Source: a virus
Lineage: Duplodnaviria; Caudoviricetes
DNA: 64,000 nucleotides
Reading direction: 5' to 3' (one strand)
IMG/VR virus record: IMGVR_UViG_3300048086_000017
Coordinates: 341-64,340 of that record
In this document: positions 3,349 through 47,192 of the stretch, in pieces
Numbering within the stretch: position 1 is the first letter of the stretch
Layout: the number at the start of each line of letters is the position of its first letter
Notes under the pieces: model-generated
The model's input: only the letters and a program-made list of their open reading frames with translations
What the model was told of the DNA's origin: nothing
Database searches by the model: none
Translations under genes and position numbers: made by a program

Positions 3349-3501
3349 ATGAAGACACACCTTGCAAAATGCCCGCGTTGCCGGAAGTTCTATCGCGGCT
3401 GGCCTGCTCTCTCGCGGGTAGACAACAAAACAAAGATCTGCCCCGCGTGTGGCGTCGAAGAGGCTCGAATAGGGCTTGTTCGCCCACCAGCAACAAAATG
3501 A
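3349..3501 (+). CDS. Small zinc-finger-like protein
   Basis: MKTHLAKCPRCRKFYRGWPALSRVDNKTKICPACGVEEA, two CxxC pairs. Confidence 0.6.
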   Translation: MKTHLAKCPRCRKFYRGWPALSRVDNKTKICPACGVEEARIGLVRPPATK

Positions 3502-3528
3502 GCGGCAAGGTTGCTCGCCTTGCCGCTC
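3500..3528. terminator. Hairpin ending the rightward replication operon
   Basis: GAGCGGCAAGG / CCTTGCCGCTC 11-bp stem. Confidence 0.5.
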
Positions 3529-3753
3529 TGCTATCTCCAGTGCCACGCTACAAGATACTGGGTCTCCCTTGCGGGGGATCGATAGCGCGTTGTGGTTCGT
3601 GTGTATGCCAACAAGGGCATCAGTGTGTTGGGTGACGCGCTTATGTAATGTGACGCGAGAGAAGCGAAAAAGTAAATGATTTTGATTTCCCCCTCAGATG
3701 CACGTCTCACCGGTGCAGGCCCGCCGTCCTATGCCATAGCACGACGGGGCTGC

Positions 3754-4026
3754 TTACTTTTCCTCAAAACAGGCTCGCAACCCCTCTAGCATGGGCATCT
3801 CTTCACGGGTGAGTAGCCCTTTCTCATCCATCCATGAAAGATGAGCATAGGCGTCACGTGCCGCTTTTACTATCTTATCCACTTCTGCGTAAAACATGCC
3901 GCTATGGCTCAACAAATCAGGATCGATGGTTATACCGCAACGGGCAACCATTTGATGCAAGGCGATCTCAGCATCACGGCGTAGTTCGGCGTAGGTATGG
4001 GTATGGTCGGCGGGATTGTCACTCAT
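3754..4026 (-). CDS. Hypothetical protein
   Basis: ORF track; ATGA-type overlap with upstream gene. Confidence 0.65.
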   Translation of the reverse strand: MSDNPADHTHTYAELRRDAEIALHQMVARCGITIDPDLLSHSGMFYAEVDKIVKAARDAYAHLSWMDEKGLLTREEMPMLEGLRACFEEK

Positions 4027-4208
4027 GGTTTGCCTCTCTTCATTCTCTTTGCTATCTTGCTTACCTGTTTTCTTTGGTCCTCGCTCATGAGCTTTGTCAT
4101 GATTTCCGCATAGACCAGTGGATACCAGATAGCAGGCTCCCAGAGTAGGGATGTGCTAGTGGTTGCTCGCTGTCTGAGGGCATCCACAATGTAAAGGGTC
4201 TTCATCAC
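4023..4208 (-). CDS. Hypothetical protein
   Basis: ORF track; overlaps both neighbours; start uncertain. Confidence 0.5.
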   Translation of the reverse strand: MMKTLYIVDALRQRATTSTSLLWEPAIWYPLVYAEIMTKLMSEDQRKQVSKIAKRMKRGKP

Positions 4209-4855
4209 TTCCCTCTCCTCTTGCTATGCGCAATATGCCACGAAATAAACGACTTTTGCTGTTCAGGTGTGAAATACCGTTCCATCTCGCCTAACCCCTC
4301 GCGCCCTGGCTTGGGAACCGCAATGTGCTCAATCTGCTTCTTGCCGTCCCGACAATGCCCAACGAGCGTCGTGCGATCAATATGTAATCTATCAGCGAAT
4401 TGGGGCAGCGTCAACGTCCCCGGTGGAAAATCGTCGGGGGATGACCCCACATCAGAAACGTTAAGTAACTCGTGTTGCGAAGGTGCTGGCGGTGTCTGTG
4501 TAGATAAAGTGGTATCTTTGGGGGTCGGTAAAATCTCGACCCTTCCAGGGGCCTCTACGGGCATTTGTGCTTTTTGGCTAGACACGGTGTCCAGAAGTTG
4601 CTGCATACTCATAAGGGTTGTTTGCATACTGGCTAACTGGAGCTCTATCTGGTCAACGCGTCTAGCCAACGTCATATCTATCTGCGCGGGTGGTTGCTTT
4701 GCAAGGGCTTCTACGCTGGCCCTGGTGATGAAATATTGCCTGCCTACTATGGCTGCGTCAAGCATGCCCGCATGGATGTAGCGGCGTACTTGCTTCTCGC
4801 TTTTATGCAGGATATCACAGGCTTCTCGAATGGTCACGGCGTCCATCATGTACAT
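4205..4855 (-). CDS. Excisionase-like (HTH_17/MerR-type) DNA-binding protein, possibly with a second C-terminal HTH
   Basis: VTIREACDILHKSEKQVRRYIHAGMLDAAIVGRQYFI; coiled coil; LTLPQFADRLHIDRTTLVGH; RBS GGGGAGGA before 4855. Confidence 0.75.
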   Translation of the reverse strand: MYMMDAVTIREACDILHKSEKQVRRYIHAGMLDAAIVGRQYFITRASVEALAKQPPAQIDMTLARRVDQIELQLASMQTTLMSMQQLLDTVSSQKAQMPVEAPGRVEILPTPKDTTLSTQTPPAPSQHELLNVSDVGSSPDDFPPGTLTLPQFADRLHIDRTTLVGHCRDGKKQIEHIAVPKPGREGLGEMERYFTPEQQKSFISWHIAHSKRRGK

Positions 4856-4885
4856 GATCTTCCTCCCCATACTGTCTACCCTCAG

Positions 4886-4943
4886 AGTTTAGACATGTCT
4901 AGCCTGCGAGTCAATTGACAGGCGTTCCAATCTGCGCTATCAT
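4886..4943. promoter_or_regulatory. Back-to-back sigma70-type promoters with palindromic operator
   Basis: Rightward TTGACA(4915-4920)-17-TATCAT(4938-4943); leftward TTGACT(4914-4909)-17-TAAACT(4891-4886); palindrome TAGACATGTCTA at 4890-4901. Confidence 0.7.
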
Positions 4944-4949
4944 GGGGAT

Positions 4950-5013
4950 GCCCGTCTGGGATTGAAACGTATCTGCTGCGATCCAAGTGAACATCGCCGC
5001 CCGTCTGGGATTG
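4950..5013 (+). CRISPR. Degenerate two-repeat mini-array / crRNA-like RNA (no cas genes in window)
   Basis: GCCCGTCTGGGATTGAAAC (4950-4968) and GCCCGTCTGGGATTG (4999-5013) separated by 30 nt. The CCC-GTCT-GGG hairpin plus ATTGAAAC handle is typical of Cas6-processed class 1 repeats. Confidence 0.7.
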
Positions 5014-5024
5014 CGCACAAGAAG

Positions 5025-5053
5025 AAAGCCGCTGGAGATCTCCAGCGGCTTTT
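5025..5053. terminator. Bidirectional intrinsic terminator
   Basis: Perfect 28-bp palindrome AAAGCCGCTGGAGATCTCCAGCGGCTTT followed by T. Confidence 0.8.
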
Positions 5054-5246
5054 GTCAATCAGTCCCTTTTTGCTTGTCACTAGAGAGACGGGAAAAGAGA
5101 CACATCATAAAATTTAGCTTTTTCTCTCTCAATCGTCTAAGGCAAATAAGAGCAGTTGCATCGATACTCTCTCCTCATGACGGCGATGCACAGGGGCATG
5201 CGGCACAATGCCCCCTCTTTTTTGCCACTCCAGAAAAAACGGCAAC

Positions 5247-5361
5247 AAAAAAGCCCCACCAATTGCGCGGAGGGCTTCTTTGCAGCGTCCCTTATCGAAG
5301 GGAGCCTACATACACTGCAACATGGGCAGAGGTGAAAGGACATCCCCAACACCTCTGCTTA
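5247..5361 (-). ncRNA. Putative ~115-nt three-hairpin small RNA
   Basis: Upstream TTGACA(5396-5391)-18-TAGGGT(5372-5367); stems GCAGAGGTG/CACCTCTGC and TGCAG..TCCCTT/AAGGGA..CTGCA; terminator with U6. Confidence 0.5.
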
Positions 5362-5458
5362 GCTACACCCTACACAAGACAAGCAGGCTTTGTCAACCCG
5401 TACGGGGAACTGCGTCATGACATCTCAGGATTGATGGATGTAGGAACGTGTTCTGAGG

Positions 5459-5695
5459 CTATCCCCATGGGTTTTTCCCGTACACTCCAGACGGTCTGCA
5501 ATCGTCAAGTGAGGACAGATCACCGTCGCCACGATCATATTTCACCAGATGGATGAGACAGTTATAGCAGACCCACGCCTCCCCGTTCCATCTCCAAATG
5601 GGTGTACGGCAGGCTGAACACTTGTCGGGCTTGCCACGTGTCGGGGTGCCAATGTTGCAAGGGATGTCTTTCGCCCAATCTGGTCCTACTGCCAT
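5459..5695 (-). CDS. Small zinc-ribbon-like hypothetical protein
   Basis: CSAC...CYNC pairs; abuts upstream gene. Confidence 0.55.
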   Translation of the reverse strand: MAVGPDWAKDIPCNIGTPTRGKPDKCSACRTPIWRWNGEAWVCYNCLIHLVKYDRGDGDLSSLDDCRPSGVYGKNPWG

Positions 5696-5932
5696 TTATG
5701 CCCCCTTGTATGCTTGCCAAAATGCACGGCGTCCTGATTGCACATATTTCTTGATGCTTTGCAGGCTATGCCCCGCAATGGCGGCTATCTCTTTGCACTG
5801 CATCCCTTCGTAGTCACGTGCGATGAGGATGGCACGCTGTCTAGTAGTGAGATGAGCAAGTGCCTGATAGAACTTGAGACGATCCATGTGGTGAACGTCT
5901 ATCCGCTCTGCTCCTTTTGCCGTTGGGAACAC
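5696..5932 (-). CDS. Stand-alone sigma70 region 4-like HTH protein
   Basis: LAHLTTRQRAILIARDYEGMQCKEIAAIAGHSLQSIKKYVQSGRR; strong RBS GAGGAGG. Confidence 0.8.
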   Translation of the reverse strand: MFPTAKGAERIDVHHMDRLKFYQALAHLTTRQRAILIARDYEGMQCKEIAAIAGHSLQSIKKYVQSGRRAFWQAYKGA

Positions 5933-6093
5933 TATAGCACCTCCTCCTCTTCTGTCTCCTCAAGATGACAAGGGCATGTCGGGTCATCACAATACGGGTG
6001 GTCGTCAGTGTGAATTGGTTCGTCCTCATCACAGATTTCAACGGGTAACGGCGTGGTACTGGGGTAGAAGTCTGGGAAGTAGAGTCCGCTCAT
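5932..6093 (-). CDS. 53-aa acidic Cys/His protein (not in ORF track)
   Basis: Own translation: MSGLYFPDFYPSTTPLPVEICDEDEPIHTDDHPYCDDPTCPCHLEETEEEEVL*; ATGA overlap upstream, stop overlaps next GTG. Confidence 0.65.
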   Translation of the reverse strand: MSGLYFPDFYPSTTPLPVEICDEDEPIHTDDHPYCDDPTCPCHLEETEEEEVL

Positions 6094-6269
6094 GCATCTT
6101 CCTCCTCTTCCAACAGGTGAGCCAACTGCTCACGGGTTGTTCTCTCACGTGCAAAACGCTCGCAATACGACGCCGCTTGCTCAATCTCTTCACGCATAGC
6201 ATCGATCAGGGTACGGGCCTGCTCAGGGGTGATCACTTCAATCGTGCTGGTGGTCGGTAGGGTATTCAT
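6090..6269 (-). CDS. Hypothetical small protein
   Basis: ORF track frame; likely start MNTL at 6269. Confidence 0.6.
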   Translation of the reverse strand: MNTLPTTSTIEVITPEQARTLIDAMREEIEQAASYCERFARERTTREQLAHLLEEEEDA

Positions 6270-6389
6270 GGTAAACTCTTTCTGATGCTTCTTCAAAGGG
6301 CATCACCTTCTATCGCGGAGGGCCAGCGGTTAACGAGGCTACTGGCCCTCTTTTTGTTGGCTACAGGGACGCGCTACGTTATCATGTCG

Positions 6390-6596
6390 CTACAGGGATT
6401 GATAGGTAATAGTAATTGTGAAGGTATGCCACATCAGGGTTTCACTGATGAGAGCGGTATGCGTGACGGTGGTACTGAGCCAGTATTCCTTGGTGATCTT
6501 TTCCGCTTCTAACCATTCGTTCATTTCGTACTCTGAGATGTCGGCTGCTACTTGTGCTGATGTCTCAGTGTTTGCAAAGGTGATGGTTCGGATCAT
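6390..6596 (-). CDS. Hypothetical small protein
   Basis: ORF track frame; start MIRT after purine-rich RBS. Confidence 0.6.
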   Translation of the reverse strand: MIRTITFANTETSAQVAADISEYEMNEWLEAEKITKEYWLSTTVTHTALISETLMWHTFTITITYQSL

Positions 6597-6610
6597 TGTT
6601 TTCTCTCTTT

Positions 6611-6844
6611 CTACTCTCGATCCATGGCCCGCACAGATCGATCCAACTCCCAAACCTCTTTGTCTGTCCTCTCCAGATTATTGAAGAGGTCATTCACGCG
6701 GCGACTCAAGACGTTGATGGCCAGCAACGCCTCTTTCCAATCAGCCACGGTGATAGCTGCGGGTGTCTCGCTGTCTCCTGGCTTGACTTCGTAGAGTGAG
6801 GTGTCAGGATCGACGTTCAGCAGTTCGTTCAGGTCTACTCTCAT
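6611..6844 (-). CDS. Hypothetical coiled-coil protein
   Basis: RBS AAGGAG; ORF track. Confidence 0.65.
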   Translation of the reverse strand: MRVDLNELLNVDPDTSLYEVKPGDSETPAAITVADWKEALLAINVLSRRVNDLFNNLERTDKEVWELDRSVRAMDRE

Positions 6845-6924
6845 TGGGTTTCTCCTTTCAAAAGTGCCATTTCTGAGCAGAAAAGTATCAACCCCCCTGC
6901 TCAGTTGCTTACAAATGGTGAGTG

Positions 6925-7137
6925 CTACTCATCTTCAAGAAATTCCGTGTTGACCCAAGCGGGCGGGCTAAAGGGATTATTCCACTTCACATAGACCTCC
7001 AATACCTCATCATCCTCATCGCCGTCGTAGCCGCTCTCATCCTCTGGCAACAGCATCACTTTGCCGTGCTTCCCGGCATATGGGTCGATACCAGACCCGT
7101 CGCCTACATACTGAACTTTTTGGCCTCTTTGCATCAT
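6925..7137 (-). CDS. Hypothetical acidic protein (SH3/KOW-like pattern)
   Basis: GQKVQYVG...GKHGKV...VYVKW pattern; acidic. Confidence 0.6.
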   Translation of the reverse strand: MMQRGQKVQYVGDGSGIDPYAGKHGKVMLLPEDESGYDGDEDDEVLEVYVKWNNPFSPPAWVNTEFLEDE

Positions 7138-7185
7138 GGTGTCCTTTGTGATGTTCTAAAAAGAGAAGAGAGGGCAAGCGTGCGA

Positions 7186-8031
7186 TCAGCACGCGGTTTC
7201 TCTCCCTCGTTTTTGTAGATAAATCTTCGCTTGATCTATCCCTTCTCGTATCATGTCCAGGTTAGTCCCCCAATTGGATAGAGGGTTCCATGCCTGTTTC
7301 AAGGTGTTGCATTTGTAGCAGGCGGGAACGCAATTACCCCAAACCGTTCCCTCCCCATGACCAAGTGGGATGAAATGCTCTAAGACGCTGTATGCCCCTT
7401 GGCAGTAGGCGCATCGCCAGTTATAGTGATCTAGTGTTTCTAGCCATTGCTCAAGAGTAAGCGTTGCGGGTAGATTGGCTCTGCTGGCTCTTGTATTGTG
7501 ATACTTTACCTTGCGCCTTTCCCCTTCAAGTATTCTTTCTCGTTCTCTTTTGCCCTCCTCCTCTGGGGTGATCTGCTGTGCTTGCTGTGTCTTCCCTGTA
7601 ACCTGGGAACGAATGCCTTGTGTGGTCTGATGAGTGGGAACGTCGTAAGCAGCATAGGCTAGCTCAACATTCTCTTTTTGATAGAGGATGCGCATGGTGC
7701 GATACCTGTGAGGGGTATAGGTATCATCAGTTGCATATTCTGCCGTAACATATCCTTTCTGGGCTAAGAATGCTAGCGCATTCTCTACTGCTTCAATTTC
7801 AAACAACTCAAACATATTTGCAGCCAACTCGGCAATCGTGCGTCGTGCCGCTGGTTTATATGCATCTGGGTCATCTGCCCACTCTATGGCTTCAAGGTAC
7901 GTGGCGTAAGTTGCGCTGATTGCGTCCAGTTGCATCGCTGCGCAATGGTTGTTATCACAAATCGTTACAAATTTTTTGCGAAGAAGGGCAATCGGGTCCC
8001 TTGTCTGGCTATAGAAGTCGTAGCTATTCAT
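7186..8031 (-). CDS. HNH endonuclease with N-terminal replication-initiator-like domain
   Basis: C-terminal CAYC...EHFIP..HGEGTVWGNCVPACYKCNTLK is HNH with zinc ligands. Confidence 0.85.
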   Translation of the reverse strand: MNSYDFYSQTRDPIALLRKKFVTICDNNHCAAMQLDAISATYATYLEAIEWADDPDAYKPAARRTIAELAANMFELFEIEAVENALAFLAQKGYVTAEYATDDTYTPHRYRTMRILYQKENVELAYAAYDVPTHQTTQGIRSQVTGKTQQAQQITPEEEGKRERERILEGERRKVKYHNTRASRANLPATLTLEQWLETLDHYNWRCAYCQGAYSVLEHFIPLGHGEGTVWGNCVPACYKCNTLKQAWNPLSNWGTNLDMIREGIDQAKIYLQKRGRETAC

Positions 8032-18849: not shown

Positions 18850-19333
18850 TGATACGCGGTTTCCTCGCTATCCGGTGCCTGCCGATGACTCGTTTGAGGA
18901 AATGCCCAATCACTGGTTCGTGTTTGATCGGCAGGAAAGAACACTTGCGCTGCTCCGATGCGTTGAGGGTCATGGCTGTTTCATGATTGGGCAAGTTTCC
19001 TTTACCCTCATCGAGTTCCCTGTCGTCTCTGAATTGTTTGCCAATGCCCCCTGGCATTCCCCGGCTGAGCGATTGTATGCGGCCTTCCAGTTTGGGGGCG
19101 TGACAGAGAAGCGTGTTGAGCAAAGCCGTGACTATCTTTTGAAAGCGGCTAAGGAAGGGATTTATGATCAGGAGATGCGCCCGCTGCGCAATGTCCTCTC
19201 TCGCGTCCGGTTGAAACTGTCTCAGTTGAGGATTGTTCCTGTTTCGATGATTGGGACGGGGTATATGCTCAGGAGGATAACCCCTATCACGGCAACTCTG
19301 TACAGCAGAAGGAGAACGCATGAAGAGGAATAA
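18836..19333 (+). CDS. OmpR/PhoB-type winged-helix DNA-binding protein without receiver domain
   Basis: MRPLRNVLSRVRLKLSQLRIVPVSMIGTGYML. Confidence 0.75.
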   Translation: MIDYDDTRFPRYPVPADDSFEEMPNHWFVFDRQERTLALLRCVEGHGCFMIGQVSFTLIEFPVVSELFANAPWHSPAERLYAAFQFGGVTEKRVEQSRDYLLKAAKEGIYDQEMRPLRNVLSRVRLKLSQLRIVPVSMIGTGYMLRRITPITATLYSRRRTHEEE

Positions 19334-21271: not shown

Positions 21272-22602
21272 TACGGGTTCCTGTTCAGAAGATACCGTCC
21301 CCTCAGTTGCGCGGCGCTGGCTTAGAACTTATTGGGTGCCGTGATTTAGAGGTGGCACTCGACGGACCAGCAGGGAGCGGCAAAACAGTTGCGGCACTCT
21401 TCAAGGTGCATGCATTGCTTCTTGCTTATCCAGGGGCTAAGGCGCTTGTTGCACGCAAAACCAACACCGCGCTTGCTGGATCGGCGGTGGCAACGTTTCG
21501 AGATACTATTCTCGATATTCGCCATAACGTGCATTATTTTGGGGGCAATAAGATCAAGCCTGCGGCCTTTGAGTATGCGAATGGATCGCTCATGATTATC
21601 AATGGGCTTGATCGCCCCGGTAAAGTGAAGTCGTGGGAATTTGACGTTGCCTATATCAACGAGGCCAGTGAGTGCAACGTAGAGGATATCGAGTTTGTGC
21701 GGTCAAGGTTGCGCAACGGCAAAATGCCCTATCACCAGCTCATCATGGACACCAATCCCGATGCTCCGATGCACTGGTTAAACCTTCGCTGTAACGCGGG
21801 GATAACGACGCGCCTCCTCTCGCGCCACGAAGACAATCCGCGCTATCATGATGGGCGTGATTGGACAGAAGAGGGACGCGCCTATATCTTCGATGTGTTG
21901 GAAGGGTTAACCGGTGTGAGATTGGCCCGCCTCCGCTATGGTGTCTGGGCTGCGGCTGAAGGGGCCGTCTACATGGACTCCTATGATAGAGCACGCAATG
22001 TCATCAACCCCTTCCCTATCCCACTTGAATGGCCTCGTTGGGTGGTTTTAGATTTTGGCTACACCAACCCATTCGTTGCAAAGTTCTATGCAGAAGATCC
22101 CGACGGCAGGCTCTTCATGTATCGTGAATTCTACCGTACAAAGACGCTGGTTGAAGATCATGTGCAATACATCAAGCAGGTTGTGCGTTGGGGTGAGAAA
22201 GGCGGCGAACCGCTACCACGTGCCGTTATTGCAGATCATGACGCTGAAGACCGCGAGACGTTCACTAGGCATAGTGGGCTATTCACGATACCAGCACACA
22301 AAACGGTGAGCGATGGTATCCAGGCGGTAGCGTCACGGTTGCGCCCCGCCGGTGATGGTCGCCCTCGTTTGATGTACTTCAACAATGCGCTGGTCGAGCC
22401 TGACCCCGAACTGGTGAGAGCAAAGAAGCCCAAATGTACCATTGAGGAATTCGATACGTACATTTGGGACACACGGCAAGGGATGAAACGCGGTGAATTG
22501 CCGGTAAAAGACTCAGATCATGGTTTAGATTGTGATCGGTACATGTGCGCTTATAAAGACTTAGTGCCTTCGGGCGTGAAATACAGTAGCAGGATTTATT
22601 AG
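21268..22602 (+). CDS. terL: Terminase large subunit (PBSX-like)
   Basis: GPAGSGKT Walker A; YINEASE Walker B; DTNP; LDFGYTNP and DHGLDCDRY nuclease motifs. Confidence 0.95.
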   Translation: MIRVPVQKIPSPQLRGAGLELIGCRDLEVALDGPAGSGKTVAALFKVHALLLAYPGAKALVARKTNTALAGSAVATFRDTILDIRHNVHYFGGNKIKPAAFEYANGSLMIINGLDRPGKVKSWEFDVAYINEASECNVEDIEFVRSRLRNGKMPYHQLIMDTNPDAPMHWLNLRCNAGITTRLLSRHEDNPRYHDGRDWTEEGRAYIFDVLEGLTGVRLARLRYGVWAAAEGAVYMDSYDRARNVINPFPIPLEWPRWVVLDFGYTNPFVAKFYAEDPDGRLFMYREFYRTKTLVEDHVQYIKQVVRWGEKGGEPLPRAVIADHDAEDRETFTRHSGLFTIPAHKTVSDGIQAVASRLRPAGDGRPRLMYFNNALVEPDPELVRAKKPKCTIEEFDTYIWDTRQGMKRGELPVKDSDHGLDCDRYMCAYKDLVPSGVKYSSRIY

Positions 22603-27212: not shown

Positions 27213-27448
27213 CCAGCAACCCGATAAAGAAGACCCACAAGCGACGCACACAGGATGAGATGAGCAAAGCGCTCGGCGTTCTTGACCAGCACCGCGATAC
27301 ACTGCACAGAAACGTTGACGATGAGCATGTTGACGTGCTCTATGACGCGGTGCGCGAACTAATGGAAACGCGGGCCATCCTTGCCAAACTGATGCAAGGC
27401 TTGAACTATCTGACCCTTGAAGCCCAGACGGGCATCAAAGCCATGTAA
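27200..27448 (+). CDS. Hypothetical protein
   Basis: GTG start with RBS GAGGA. Confidence 0.6.
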   Translation: MAKITSNPIKKTHKRRTQDEMSKALGVLDQHRDTLHRNVDDEHVDVLYDAVRELMETRAILAKLMQGLNYLTLEAQTGIKAM

Positions 27449-46853: not shown

Positions 46854-47192
46854 CTACTGGCGCACGGTAAAGCGCCGCACTGCGTAAGGTTGACCATCCT
46901 TGCGAATACAATCAGGGCCGCTATCAGGAACGATCAAATCAACTCGATCCTGCACGTCGGGATGAGCAAAGATCATCGTGCTGACAATATACAAGGTGTC
47001 TGTCTTCGGATCAGGCAATCCACTCACCGGGCCGTACTGAGTCATGCTCATCGGTACGCCGTCGATATGACGTACAACCTGTGGGGATGTGCGCACAGTG
47101 GCTCGATCCCCAGAAGGATCAACAGTCAAAATGATCTGATCCTGCGCATCCGCCACTCTCACGGTATGCGGGGTAAGGTTGACAAAGTTCAT
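46854..47192 (-). CDS. Conserved-looking hypothetical phage protein
   Basis: MNFVNLTPH...GLPDPK.DTLYIVS...DL.VP; RBS AAGGA. Confidence 0.75.
   Translation of the reverse strand: MNFVNLTPHTVRVADAQDQIILTVDPSGDRATVRTSPQVVRHIDGVPMSMTQYGPVSGLPDPKTDTLYIVSTMIFAHPDVQDRVDLIVPDSGPDCIRKDGQPYAVRRFTVRQ

What the first reader, a model, noticed from the sequence alone, without database searches (positions are those of the whole stretch)
4915..5053. Self-contained crRNA-like transcription unit (mini-CRISPR / RNA anti-CRISPR candidate) with no cas genes
Seen: TTGACA-17-TATCAT promoter whose start site falls just before GCCCGTCTGGGATTGAAAC; then 30 nt (GTATCTGCTGCGATCCAAGTGAACATCGCC); a second GCCCGTCTGGGATTG; then a perfect 28-bp terminator. 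Established: CCC-N4-GGG hairpins followed by an 8-nt ATTGAAAC handle are Cas6 substrates of class 1 repeats (I-D/III-like). Phages carry mini-arrays and solitary repeats (Racr), and crRNA-like RNAs with short guides (CreA type) make Cascade repress promoters. Inference: host Cas6 would cut twice and release a ~49-nt RNA (handle + 31 nt + hairpin), much shorter than a normal crRNA. If repeat 2 starts at GTGAAC (4987) the guide is only 18 nt. It could titrate Cas proteins or steer host Cascade to silence, not cut, a host or competitor target.
Basis: partly seen in the sequence, partly recalled or inferred. Interest (0 to 1): 0.87.

Follow-up and report, generated by a model that had tools for sequence, protein, structure and literature searches.

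The report
Phage one-guide CRISPR mimic RNA gene
A temperate-type phage of Ktedonobacteria (Chloroflexota) carries a tiny RNA gene made of a promoter, two cut-down copies of its hosts' CRISPR repeat around one 30-letter guide, and a terminator, so it most likely feeds a guide RNA of its own into the host's CRISPR machinery; this kind of phage trick is already known, and this is a new example for a different CRISPR type and host group.

Summary
The 19-nt motif at 4950-4968 is identical to the invariant 3' end (Cas6 hairpin plus 8-nt handle) of the 37-nt repeats of many CRISPR arrays in Thermogemmatispora and other Ktedonobacteria. Those genomes carry a type I-D locus, two type III loci and two Cas6 genes. 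The 64-kb phage has no cas genes. The unit keeps only what a Cas6-made crRNA needs: a promoter abutting repeat 1, hairpin plus full handle, 30 nt, a second hairpin without a full handle, and a terminator. Two unrelated IMG/VR phage contigs carry mini-arrays of the same design.

Function is unresolved between a guide-bearing crRNA (favoured), a Racr-like decoy and a Cracr-like repressor. No rival-phage target was found, and the phage has almost no sequenced relatives. The only similarity of the guide is 24/26 (26/28 counting two further bases in repeat 2) to a conserved lipoprotein gene, seen in two of the 8 Thermogemmatispora-group homologues examined among 169 class genomes. The RNA would be antisense to its mRNA. 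This fits type III, not type I-D.

Verdict: a new member of a known kind (viral mini-arrays / RNA anti-CRISPRs). This scan has noted over 50 similar phage crRNA mimics on other DNA, mostly types I-C, I-E and I-B.

The parts
4915..4943 (+). Sigma-70-type promoter: TTGACA, 17 nt, TATCAT. The predicted start is about 4949-4951, at the first base of the repeat hairpin.
   Evidence: 11 of 12 positions, the best match in 3500-7500. Host arrays have the same layout, a TTGAC-17-TA..T promoter ending 12 nt before repeat 1. Transcription itself is inferred.
4944..4968 (+). Repeat 1, cut down to the 3' part of the host 37-nt repeat. It has a hairpin (CCC 4951-4953 / GGG 4958-4960, loop GTCT) and the full 8-nt handle ATTGAAAC (4961-4968). 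Cas6 is predicted to cut between 4960 and 4961.
   Evidence: The 19-mer at 4950-4968 is exact in arrays of Thermogemmatispora and Ktedonobacteraceae. The 25 nt at 4944-4968 match the repeat of a Ktedonobacterales MAG at 24 of 25. The cut site is inferred from general knowledge of Cas6 and 8-nt handles.
4969..4998 (+). The 30-nt guide (spacer).
   Evidence: It has no copy or target elsewhere in the phage. Its only outside similarity is to a host lipoprotein gene.
4973..5000 (+). 28-nt segment that is 26/28 identical to the antisense strand of a conserved lipoprotein gene of Thermogemmatispora carboxidivorans PM5. Mismatches fall at guide positions 18 and 21.
   Evidence: The 26-mer with up to 3 mismatches hits only 2 of 169 class genomes, and the reversed control gives 0.
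4999..5013 (+). Repeat 2: the same hairpin (CCC 5000-5002 / GGG 5007-5009) plus only ATTG of the handle. The second Cas6 cut is predicted after 5009, giving a 49-nt RNA (4961-5009).
   Evidence: family D7, 100% identity, spacing 49. The loss of the last 4 handle bases resembles the degenerate terminal repeats of host arrays.
5025..5056 (.). Intrinsic terminator: a perfect 14+14 palindrome followed by T-rich sequence. It looks usable from both strands.
   Evidence: I6; folds strongly; whole transcript -41.7 kcal/mol, z -3.0.

Best explanation
This is a phage-borne, single-guide mini-CRISPR array, that is, a crRNA-like RNA gene that uses the host's Cas proteins.

Proposed steps:
- A strong promoter starts transcription at the first hairpin.
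- Host Cas6 binds the two CCC-GTCT-GGG hairpins and cuts after each. This releases a 49-nt RNA with the 8-nt 5' handle AUUGAAAC, a 30-nt guide and an 11-nt 3' hairpin.
- The handle lets the RNA load into the hosts' class 1 effectors. For type III, 3' trimming would leave about 38 nt, a normal mature size. For type I-D it would give a Cascade about one Cas7 shorter than normal.
- The phage thereby places a guide of its own choosing in host complexes and, as a side effect, competes with host crRNAs.

The target is not settled. It is either an unsampled rival element or, as the only similarity found suggests, the mRNA of a conserved host lipoprotein.

Shown here: the repeat identity, the cas content of the hosts, the architecture, and its recurrence in other phages. 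Inferred: transcription, Cas6 cutting, loading and the effect.
For: (1) The 19-mer is exact in many host arrays. It is the invariant part of repeats whose 5' 18 nt differ from array to array, so the phage kept exactly the constrained Cas6/handle part.

(2) The hosts have Cas6 (two copies), type I-D, and type III loci that lack arrays of their own. The arrays with this repeat are orphan arrays served in trans.

(3) The design is asymmetric in the way a one-crRNA gene needs. Repeat 1 keeps the full handle that ends up on the guide. Repeat 2 keeps only the hairpin needed for the 3' cut. A decoy would need neither a second hairpin nor a fixed guide length.

(4) The layout copies host arrays, with the promoter directly before repeat 1.

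(5) Two other IMG/VR phage contigs, unrelated to this phage, have the same design for the sister repeat that Ktedonobacteria arrays also use. Between those two related phages the promoter, first repeat and terminator are conserved while the guides are exchanged.

(6) The guide has a non-random similarity to a gene found only in the candidate host genus, in the antisense orientation that type III needs. Three null 26-mer searches gave 0 of 169.

(7) A plasmid-borne repeat-spacer-repeat mini-array works in trans with type III systems in Thermus (PMC7515739).
Against: No full protospacer was found anywhere. Searches gave 0 in IMG/VR, 0 in JGI metagenome contigs and 0 with up to 3 mismatches in 169 class genomes.

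The best host-gene match has 5 mismatches in 30 and no GTN PAM. It lies in 58-65% GC Thermogemmatispora, whereas the phage is 52% GC and its repeat 1 fits a 52% GC Ktedonobacterales MAG best. That MAG's homologue of the gene does not match the guide.

The repeats lack the 5' 18 nt of host repeats, so loading into I-D is uncertain.

In the minimum-energy fold the guide pairs with repeat 2 instead of the second hairpin forming.

No relative of this phage carries the unit, so conservation cannot be judged.
Confidence: 0.5

Rival explanations
1. Racr-like decoy. The RNA's job is only to bind Cas6, Cas7 or Cas5-type subunits through its repeat parts and tie them up in short, useless complexes. This would lower host type I-D/III immunity against the phage. 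The guide sequence would be irrelevant.
For: The repeat mimicry is perfect in the protein-binding part. The unit has a strong promoter of its own directly upstream, as described for viral solitary repeat units and RacrIF1 (PMC10651486). No convincing target was found. The distance between handle and hairpin is 30 nt, against 52-59 nt in host arrays, which would give shortened complexes. The unit sits beside an operon of small acidic ORFs plus an HTH, a typical anti-defence layout.
Against: Racrs are single repeat units. Here two hairpins frame a segment of defined length, the full handle is kept only where a guide needs it, and the guide shows a non-random similarity to a host-genus gene. In the analogous arrays of two related phages the guides are swapped rather than drifting. 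No host spacer against this phage was found in the arrays examined, so pressure from this CRISPR system is not shown.
Confidence: 0.25
2. Cracr/CreR-like repressor. Through a short PAM-proximal match, the RNA steers I-D Cascade to sit on, but not cut, a host promoter (cas genes, a CRISPR-guarding toxin or another defence gene) and silences it.
For: Viral crRNA-like RNAs with shortened guides do this for types V-A, I-B, I-C, I-E and I-F (bioRxiv 10.1101/2024.10.29.618823). The guide here is shorter than host spacers. The host I-D loci contain a solitary repeat-like unit just before cas10d, so cr-like regulation may exist there. In the two analogous phage arrays, two guides share their first 11 nt and then diverge, which looks like conservation of a seed.
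Against: In the I-D loci of PM5 and T81 the best seed-type match covers guide positions 1-5 and 7-11. It lies at the 3' end of an MFS transporter gene, has TGT or TTT instead of a GTN PAM, and is not at a cas promoter. About 0.04 such matches are expected per 20-kb locus. The guide does not resemble the sequence after the host solitary repeat. No I-D Cracr is described.
Confidence: 0.08
3. Inert relic. This would be a fragment of a host array, or of an older phage mini-array, picked up by recombination and now decaying, with no present function.
For: Both repeats are truncated and repeat 2 has lost part of the handle. No target was found. No relatives exist to show conservation.
Against: Both hairpins are still identical to each other and to host repeats over 15-19 nt. 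The piece is framed exactly by a near-consensus promoter and a perfect terminator. The same trimmed design recurs in an unrelated phage lineage.
Confidence: 0.1

Closest known systems
Virus-borne mini-CRISPR arrays (Medvedeva et al. 2019, PMC6858448; reviewed in PMC11656645)
   Same: It is a virus without cas genes that carries one or two spacers between repeats matching the host's arrays, and it relies on host Cas proteins.
   Different: Here the repeats are not full copies; only the 3' 19-25 and 15 nt of a 37-nt repeat remain. The guide is 30 nt against 33-40 in host arrays. No match to a related virus was found, which is the feature that gave the known arrays their role in interviral conflict. 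The host group (Ktedonobacteria) and repeat family (I-D/III) are new for this kind.
RNA anti-CRISPRs (Racr) / viral solitary repeat units (Camara-Wilpert et al. 2023, PMC10651486)
   Same: It is a phage-encoded repeat mimic with its own promoter and no cas genes, and it would compete for Cas6 and backbone subunits.
   Different: It has two repeat pieces framing a guide with an intact 5' handle, not a solitary repeat. Inhibition was not tested.
Cracr RNAs and Cracr arrays (Liu et al., bioRxiv 10.1101/2024.10.29.618823)
   Same: It is a viral crRNA-like RNA with degenerate repeats and a shortened guide, in a compact unit with a promoter and terminator.
   Different: Cracrs are defined by at least 9 PAM-proximal matches to a host cas or creT promoter (or to host CreR/CreA). 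None was found here. They are described for V-A, I-B, I-C, I-E and I-F, not for I-D or III.
Host cr-like RNAs CreR/CreA (Shmakov et al. 2023, PMC10120712; cited)
   Same: It is a mini-array of degenerate repeats with a short guide.
   Different: Those RNAs are encoded inside host cas loci and match the neighbouring promoter. This unit is in a phage.
Engineered plasmid mini-arrays for type III in Thermus (Artamonova et al. 2020, PMC7515739)
   Same: It has the repeat-spacer-repeat plus terminator layout, expressed in trans and used by resident type III-A/III-B complexes.
   Different: Those are artificial and use full repeats. The present unit is natural and minimal.

Membership tests
Viral mini-CRISPR array | Lies in a virus genome that has no cas genes of its own | tested here: met
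   The record is an IMG/VR virus, 64,340 bp, CheckV 100%. It has phage hallmark genes. A PADLOC scan of 64 ORFs found no cas family.
Viral mini-CRISPR array | Two or more repeats identical or nearly identical to host CRISPR repeats, around 1-2 spacers | tested here: inconclusive
   The 3' 19 nt (repeat 1) and 15 nt (repeat 2) are identical to host repeats, and 24 of 25 nt match one MAG's repeat. The 5' 12-18 nt of the 37-nt repeat are absent.
Viral mini-CRISPR array | Spacer matches a related virus | tested here: not met
   There were 0 hits in IMG/VR, in metagenome contigs and in the one distant prophage relative. The phage has almost no sequenced relatives, so this test is weak.
Racr / solitary repeat unit | Solitary repeat-like unit in a mobile element, similar in sequence and fold to host repeats | tested here: inconclusive
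   Sequence and hairpin are similar, but the unit is a pair of repeats with a guide, not solitary.
Racr / solitary repeat unit | Own promoter within about 250 bp upstream | tested here: met
   A predicted promoter ends 6 nt before the hairpin. This is a prediction only.
Racr / solitary repeat unit | Inhibits the cognate CRISPR-Cas system by forming aberrant Cas complexes | not testable with these tools
   This needs interference assays and complex purification.
Cracr (Cas/CreT-repressing RNA anti-CRISPR) | At least 9 PAM-proximal guide bases match a host cas or creT promoter, or a host CreR/CreA guide | tested here: not met
   The best match in the PM5 and T81 I-D loci is 10 of the first 12 positions. 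It lies inside the 3' end of an MFS gene with a TGT/TTT flank and is not at a cas promoter. The guide shows no likeness to the sequence after the host solitary repeat before cas10d. The true host strain is unknown.
Cracr (Cas/CreT-repressing RNA anti-CRISPR) | Guide shorter than host spacers | tested here: met
   The guide is 30 nt, against 33-40 nt in 69 host spacers.
Class 1 (type I-D / III) Cas6-type repeat | Short G:C hairpin followed by an 8-nt handle, identical to repeats of arrays in genomes that encode Cas6 with I-D and/or III effectors | tested here: met
   Arrays were found. Cas6, Cas10d, Csc2, Cas3', Cas1d and Cas2 were found. RAMP clusters of two type III loci were found.

The most novel reading that the evidence does not exclude
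The phage RNA is a type III crRNA aimed at a host messenger. It is antisense to the mRNA of a conserved single-copy lipoprotein (weak LolA-like/DUF4367 matches) of Thermogemmatispora-type hosts.

In the best-matching host it pairs over guide positions 5-30. The only mismatches there are position 18, a sixth position that does not pair, and position 21. Positions 1, 3 and 4 are mismatched. In Thermus Cmr those 5' positions form the Cas10-activating region: mismatches there stop cyclic-oligoadenylate signalling but not binding and cutting of the target RNA (PMC8376896).

The phage would thus use the host's own type III complex as a silent RNA-knock-down tool against a cell-envelope gene, for example to block superinfection, without setting off the alarm.
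Probability: 0.12. Interest if true: 0.85.

Novelty: new member of a known kind. Interest (0 to 1): 0.45.

Why it matters
Phage-encoded crRNA mimics are a recently recognised counter-defence (mini-arrays 2019, Racr 2023, Cracr 2024-26). Tested examples are type I-F, I-C, I-E, I-B and V-A in Proteobacteria, Firmicutes and Actinobacteria.

This unit extends the idea to the I-D/III repeat family and to Chloroflexota phages. It also shows, in a natural example, how little of a 37-nt repeat is kept: the hairpin plus the 8-nt handle. That amounts to a natural definition of the minimal Cas6/effector-loading module, and it is useful for building compact guides for type III or I-D tools.

If the similarity to the host gene proves functional, it would be a first case of a virus reprogramming a type III complex against a host transcript.

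Tried and rejected
**Target searches for the 30-nt guide**
- Within the phage, up to 3 mismatches plus a seed scan: nothing.
- IMG/VR, with every sixth base free: 0.
- JGI metagenome contigs, two patterns: 0 and 0.
- Five host-like genomes and then all 169 class genomes, up to 3 mismatches: 0.
- The distant prophage relative: nothing.

**Host spacers against the phage**
- 69 spacers from the fetched arrays gave no real protospacer. The best was a 16-nt partial match.
- BLAST of phage 1-20 kb against five genomes, and of 20-40 kb against the class, gave no spacer-size hits.

**Relatives carrying the unit**
- The neighbouring HTH protein has no homologue in IMG/VR or in 5.8 billion proteins.
- The only related prophage (G094) sits on a contig that ends before the early region.

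**Other checks**
- Phage-borne homologues of the lipoprotein: none.
- Rfam: only two tRNAs in the window.
- Coding explanation: ORFs overlapping the unit (4987-5556 +, 4882-5058 -) have no Pfam hit and run through terminators.
- Homology between the phage promoter and host leaders: only the hexamers and spacing agree, so I do not claim it.
- The third near-copy of the motif at 27419-27433 (-) has 2 mismatches and lies at the start of a short reading frame. I judge it to be chance.
- Guides of the two analogous phage arrays: no self, cross or host targets were found.

Full report
**What is there**

The window is all but the first 340 bases of a 64,340-bp IMG/VR virus record that CheckV rates as complete. 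It encodes an integrase, RecT, large terminase, portal, major head protein and tape measure, so it is a temperate-type tailed phage.

The finding lies in a 590-bp gap between genes. On one side is a divergently oriented HTH_17 (excisionase-like) gene at 4205-4870 on the minus strand. On the other is a minus-strand operon of small acidic ORFs, a sigma-70 region-4 HTH and an HNH protein at 5459-8031.

- TTGACA-17-TATCAT at 4915-4943, the best promoter match in the surrounding 4 kb;
- the 19-nt motif at 4950-4968;
- 30 nt at 4969-4998;
- the first 15 nt of the motif again at 4999-5013 (family D7);
- a perfect 14+14 palindromic terminator at 5025-5052.

**It is a CRISPR repeat, and whose**

The 19-mer had no other hit in IMG/VR. 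In one genome per species of bacteria and archaea it hit 19 places. Twelve of these lie in arrays with a period of 72-77 nt, in Thermogemmatispora tikiterensis, T. carboxidivorans, T. aurantia, Thermogemmatispora MAGs and Ktedonobacteraceae MAGs.

Reading these arrays shows 37-nt repeats. Their last 19 nt are invariant, while the first 18 nt differ from array to array, even within one genome. The phage has therefore kept exactly the constrained part: a three-pair G:C hairpin with a four-base loop, then the 8-nt handle ATTGAAAC.

Upstream of the 19-mer the phage also matches some host repeats. Positions 4944-4968 agree at 24 of 25 with the repeat of a Ktedonobacterales MAG whose DNA is 52% G+C, like the phage. 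Thermogemmatispora loci are 58-65% G+C.

Each host array has its own TTGAC-17-TA..T promoter ending 12 nt before repeat 1. The phage unit copies that layout, with 6 nt in between. I do not claim homology of the promoters, because only the hexamers and the spacing agree.

**Which Cas proteins**

Each Thermogemmatispora genome has two Cas6 homologues. In T. carboxidivorans PM5 one of them sits in a type I-D locus with Cas10d/Csc3, Csc2, Cas3', Cas1d and Cas2. That locus has an adjacent array of a sister repeat with a five-base loop and the handle ATTGAAAG. The other Cas6 stands alone among metabolic genes.

The same genomes also have two clusters of RAMP genes, that is, two type III loci. These have no array within 14-20 kb. 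The arrays with the phage-like repeat lie far from all cas genes, so they must be served in trans. Type III deserves at least as much weight as I-D.

**Anatomy and the likely product**

With the usual 7 nt between the -10 box and the start, the transcript begins at about 4950, the first base of hairpin 1. A Cas6 cut at the 3' base of each hairpin would release 4961-5009. That is the 8-nt handle, the 30-nt guide and the 11-nt hairpin, 49 nt in all.

Two points of design argue for a guide-bearing RNA over a pure decoy. Repeat 1 keeps the whole handle, which stays on the guide. Repeat 2 keeps only the hairpin and four handle bases, which is all that a 3' cut needs.

Host arrays place 52-59 nt between handle and next hairpin (a spacer of 33-40 nt plus 19 nt of repeat). 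The phage places 30. After the 3' trimming known for type III complexes (established knowledge, not tested here), 8 + 30 nt is an ordinary mature crRNA. In I-D it would give a complex about one Cas7 shorter than normal.

In the minimum-energy fold, hairpin 1 and the terminator form. Part of the guide (about 4978-4984) pairs with repeat 2 instead of hairpin 2 forming. Cas6 binding would have to win this competition.

**The same design in other phages**

I scanned IMG/VR for a handle followed within 18-44 nt by another hairpin plus ATTG. Two contigs came back, of 67.9 kb and 21.5 kb, both 43% G+C. They are related to each other (about 85% nucleotide identity) but share no detectable protein with this phage.

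Both have a TTGACA-17-TATGCT promoter and a first repeat ending in the sister 19-mer with loop GTTT or GATT. That 19-mer occurs in arrays of 8 Ktedonobacteria genomes, T. tikiterensis among them. Their guides are 23-30 nt. Later repeats are reduced to hairpin plus handle, the last one to a bare hairpin, and a terminator follows.

Between the two relatives the promoter, first repeat and terminator are conserved, while the guides are exchanged. Two guides share their first 11 nt and then diverge. So this is a recurrent class of element in Ktedonobacteria phages, with turnover of guides.

**Search for a target**

No protospacer was found in any of these:
- the phage itself;
- IMG/VR;
- JGI metagenome contigs;
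- 169 class Ktedonobacteria genomes at up to 3 mismatches over 30 nt;
- the one distant prophage relative.

Sixty-nine host spacers, and BLAST of 40 kb of the phage, gave no spacer against this phage. The neighbouring gene has no homologue anywhere, so the databases simply lack this phage's relatives. The negative result for rival phages therefore carries little weight.

**One unexpected similarity**

BLAST of the region against the class found that 4973-5000 matches T. carboxidivorans PM5 at 26 of 28, and T. aurantia nearly as well. A search with the 26-mer (guide positions 5-30) at up to 3 mismatches hit only these two of 169 genomes. The built-in reversed control gave 0, and so did an unrelated 26-mer and its control.

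My estimate of the chance expectation is about 0.004 to 0.03 for the class, and lower still given that both hits fall in the candidate host genus. Comparable BLAST scores did turn up three times by chance in the other 2.6 kb of query. I therefore treat the match as probably real but not proven.

The matched gene encodes a 377-aa protein with a lipoprotein signal peptide and weak DUF2092 (LolA-like) and DUF4367 matches. It is a mostly single-copy chromosomal gene found in 77 of 169 genomes, and it lies among ordinary metabolic genes. That count includes three unpublished genomes (G081, G120, G128), and no other claim rests on them.

All eight homologues of the Thermogemmatispora group match the guide at 22-25 of 30, and none matches better than PM5. 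Guide positions 1-4 never match fully. The homologue in the 52% G+C MAG does not match at all (17 of 30).

The phage RNA would be antisense to the mRNA, as type III targeting requires. The flank is GAG, not the GTN PAM known for I-D (the PAM is from my own knowledge), and the PAM-proximal bases mismatch. I-D could therefore not use this site.

The reverse complement of the guide reads in frame as a variant of the host peptide, with one synonymous and one replacement change in the matching part. This is what divergence from a homologous gene would give.

**How I weigh the mechanisms**

- **Guide-bearing crRNA that hijacks host Cas6 and a class 1 effector: 0.5.** The grounds are the asymmetric design, the copying of host array layout, guide turnover in the analogous arrays, and the non-random guide similarity.
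- **Racr-like decoy: 0.25.** It explains the missing target and the anti-defence-like neighbourhood, but not the second hairpin or the handle asymmetry (PMC10651486).
- **Cracr-like promoter silencing through I-D Cascade: 0.08.** The defining PAM-proximal promoter match was looked for in two host I-D loci and not found. The best match is inside an MFS gene with the wrong flank (bioRxiv 10.1101/2024.10.29.618823).
- **Inert relic: 0.1.**

The most novel reading left open is a silent type III knock-down of the host lipoprotein mRNA. In Thermus Cmr, pairing of guide positions 1-7 is needed for cyclic-oligoadenylate production but not for RNA binding and cutting (PMC8376896). Here the mismatches to the best host gene fall at positions 1, 3 and 4, plus position 18 (a non-pairing sixth position) and position 21. 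I give this 0.12.

**Comparison with what is known, and novelty**

Viral mini-arrays, solitary repeat units/Racrs and Cracr arrays are established kinds (PMC6858448, PMC10651486, PMC11656645, the Liu et al. preprint). This scan has already noted more than 50 phage crRNA mimics in at least 48 other genomes.

What is new here:
- the repeat family (I-D/III) and the host phylum;
- the reduction of a 37-nt repeat to its 3' hairpin-plus-handle half;
- its recurrence in two unrelated phage lineages;
- a possible host-transcript target.

I file it as a new member of a known kind. The membership table shows that it does not meet the target criterion of either mini-arrays or Cracrs, and that it is not a solitary repeat. 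It works like these elements without fitting any one definition fully.

Noticed in passing
L033:6640-6910 (+) and L034:12140-12340 (-): Two IMG/VR phage contigs (43% G+C, related to each other, unrelated to this phage) carry promoter-driven mini-arrays of the sister repeat (loop GTTT/GATT). Their guides are 23-30 nt, the repeats shrink step by step to a bare hairpin, and a terminator follows. Two guides share their first 11 nt and then diverge.
   Followed up: partly
L029 about 18900-18945 (-) and L031 about 6960-7010 (+): In T. carboxidivorans PM5 and T. tikiterensis T81 a solitary repeat-like unit (hairpin plus handle-like ATTGGAAG / ATTGGAAC) sits immediately before the ribosome-binding site and start codon of cas10d. 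It could be a CreR-like regulator or a Cas6 processing site in the cas mRNA leader.
   Followed up: no
L004, L007, L012, L013, L014, L016, L022 (host arrays): Orphan arrays scattered over Thermogemmatispora genomes share an invariant 3' 19 nt but have different 5' 18-nt repeat halves. Each has its own conserved promoter 12 nt before repeat 1. Several contain duplicated spacers.
   Followed up: partly
window 46854-47192 (-): A 112-aa ORF next to the two tRNA genes, inside an RHH/MazG operon, matches PADLOC family PDLC01138 ('unknown small protein, sometimes fused to CARF', E 2e-19). It has no Pfam hit. It could be a type III signalling-related (anti-defence) protein.
   Followed up: partly
window 5053-5132 (-): A promoter-like site on the minus strand (TTGAGA-17-TATGAT, 5132-5104) faces the same palindromic terminator. 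The roughly 75-nt RNA it would make contains CCCGTCT (complement of 5086-5092), the first 7 nt of the repeat hairpin.
   Followed up: no
window 5459-8031 (-): This is an operon of translationally coupled small acidic ORFs (53-78 aa), a sigma-70 region-4 HTH, a Zn-ribbon-like ORF and an HNH protein. It ends at a terminator at 5254-5272. The layout is reminiscent of acr-aca early genes.
   Followed up: no
L029:5334-5345 (+) and L031:14606-14617 (-): Guide positions 1-5 and 7-11 match the 3' end of an MFS transporter gene 1.3 kb from the I-D-linked array in both PM5 and T81. The flank is TGT/TTT, not GTN. About 0.04 such matches are expected per locus.
   Followed up: partly
L119/L120 (G094:C6:14963-24023): A distant prophage relative (64-72% nucleotide identity over terminase, portal and head genes) lies in a 45% G+C Ktedonobacteria genome. 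The contig ends before the region that would correspond to the unit.
   Followed up: partly
window 4974-4984 with 5008-5017: In the minimum-energy fold the guide (UGC.GCGAUCC) pairs with repeat 2 and the bases that replace the handle (GGAUUGCGCA). This competes with hairpin 2.
   Followed up: no
window 21371-21386: The first spacer of a T. aurantia array (L004) matches the phage over 16 contiguous nt, inside the gene that precedes or overlaps the terminase region. It probably reflects a conserved ATPase motif of a related phage.
   Followed up: no
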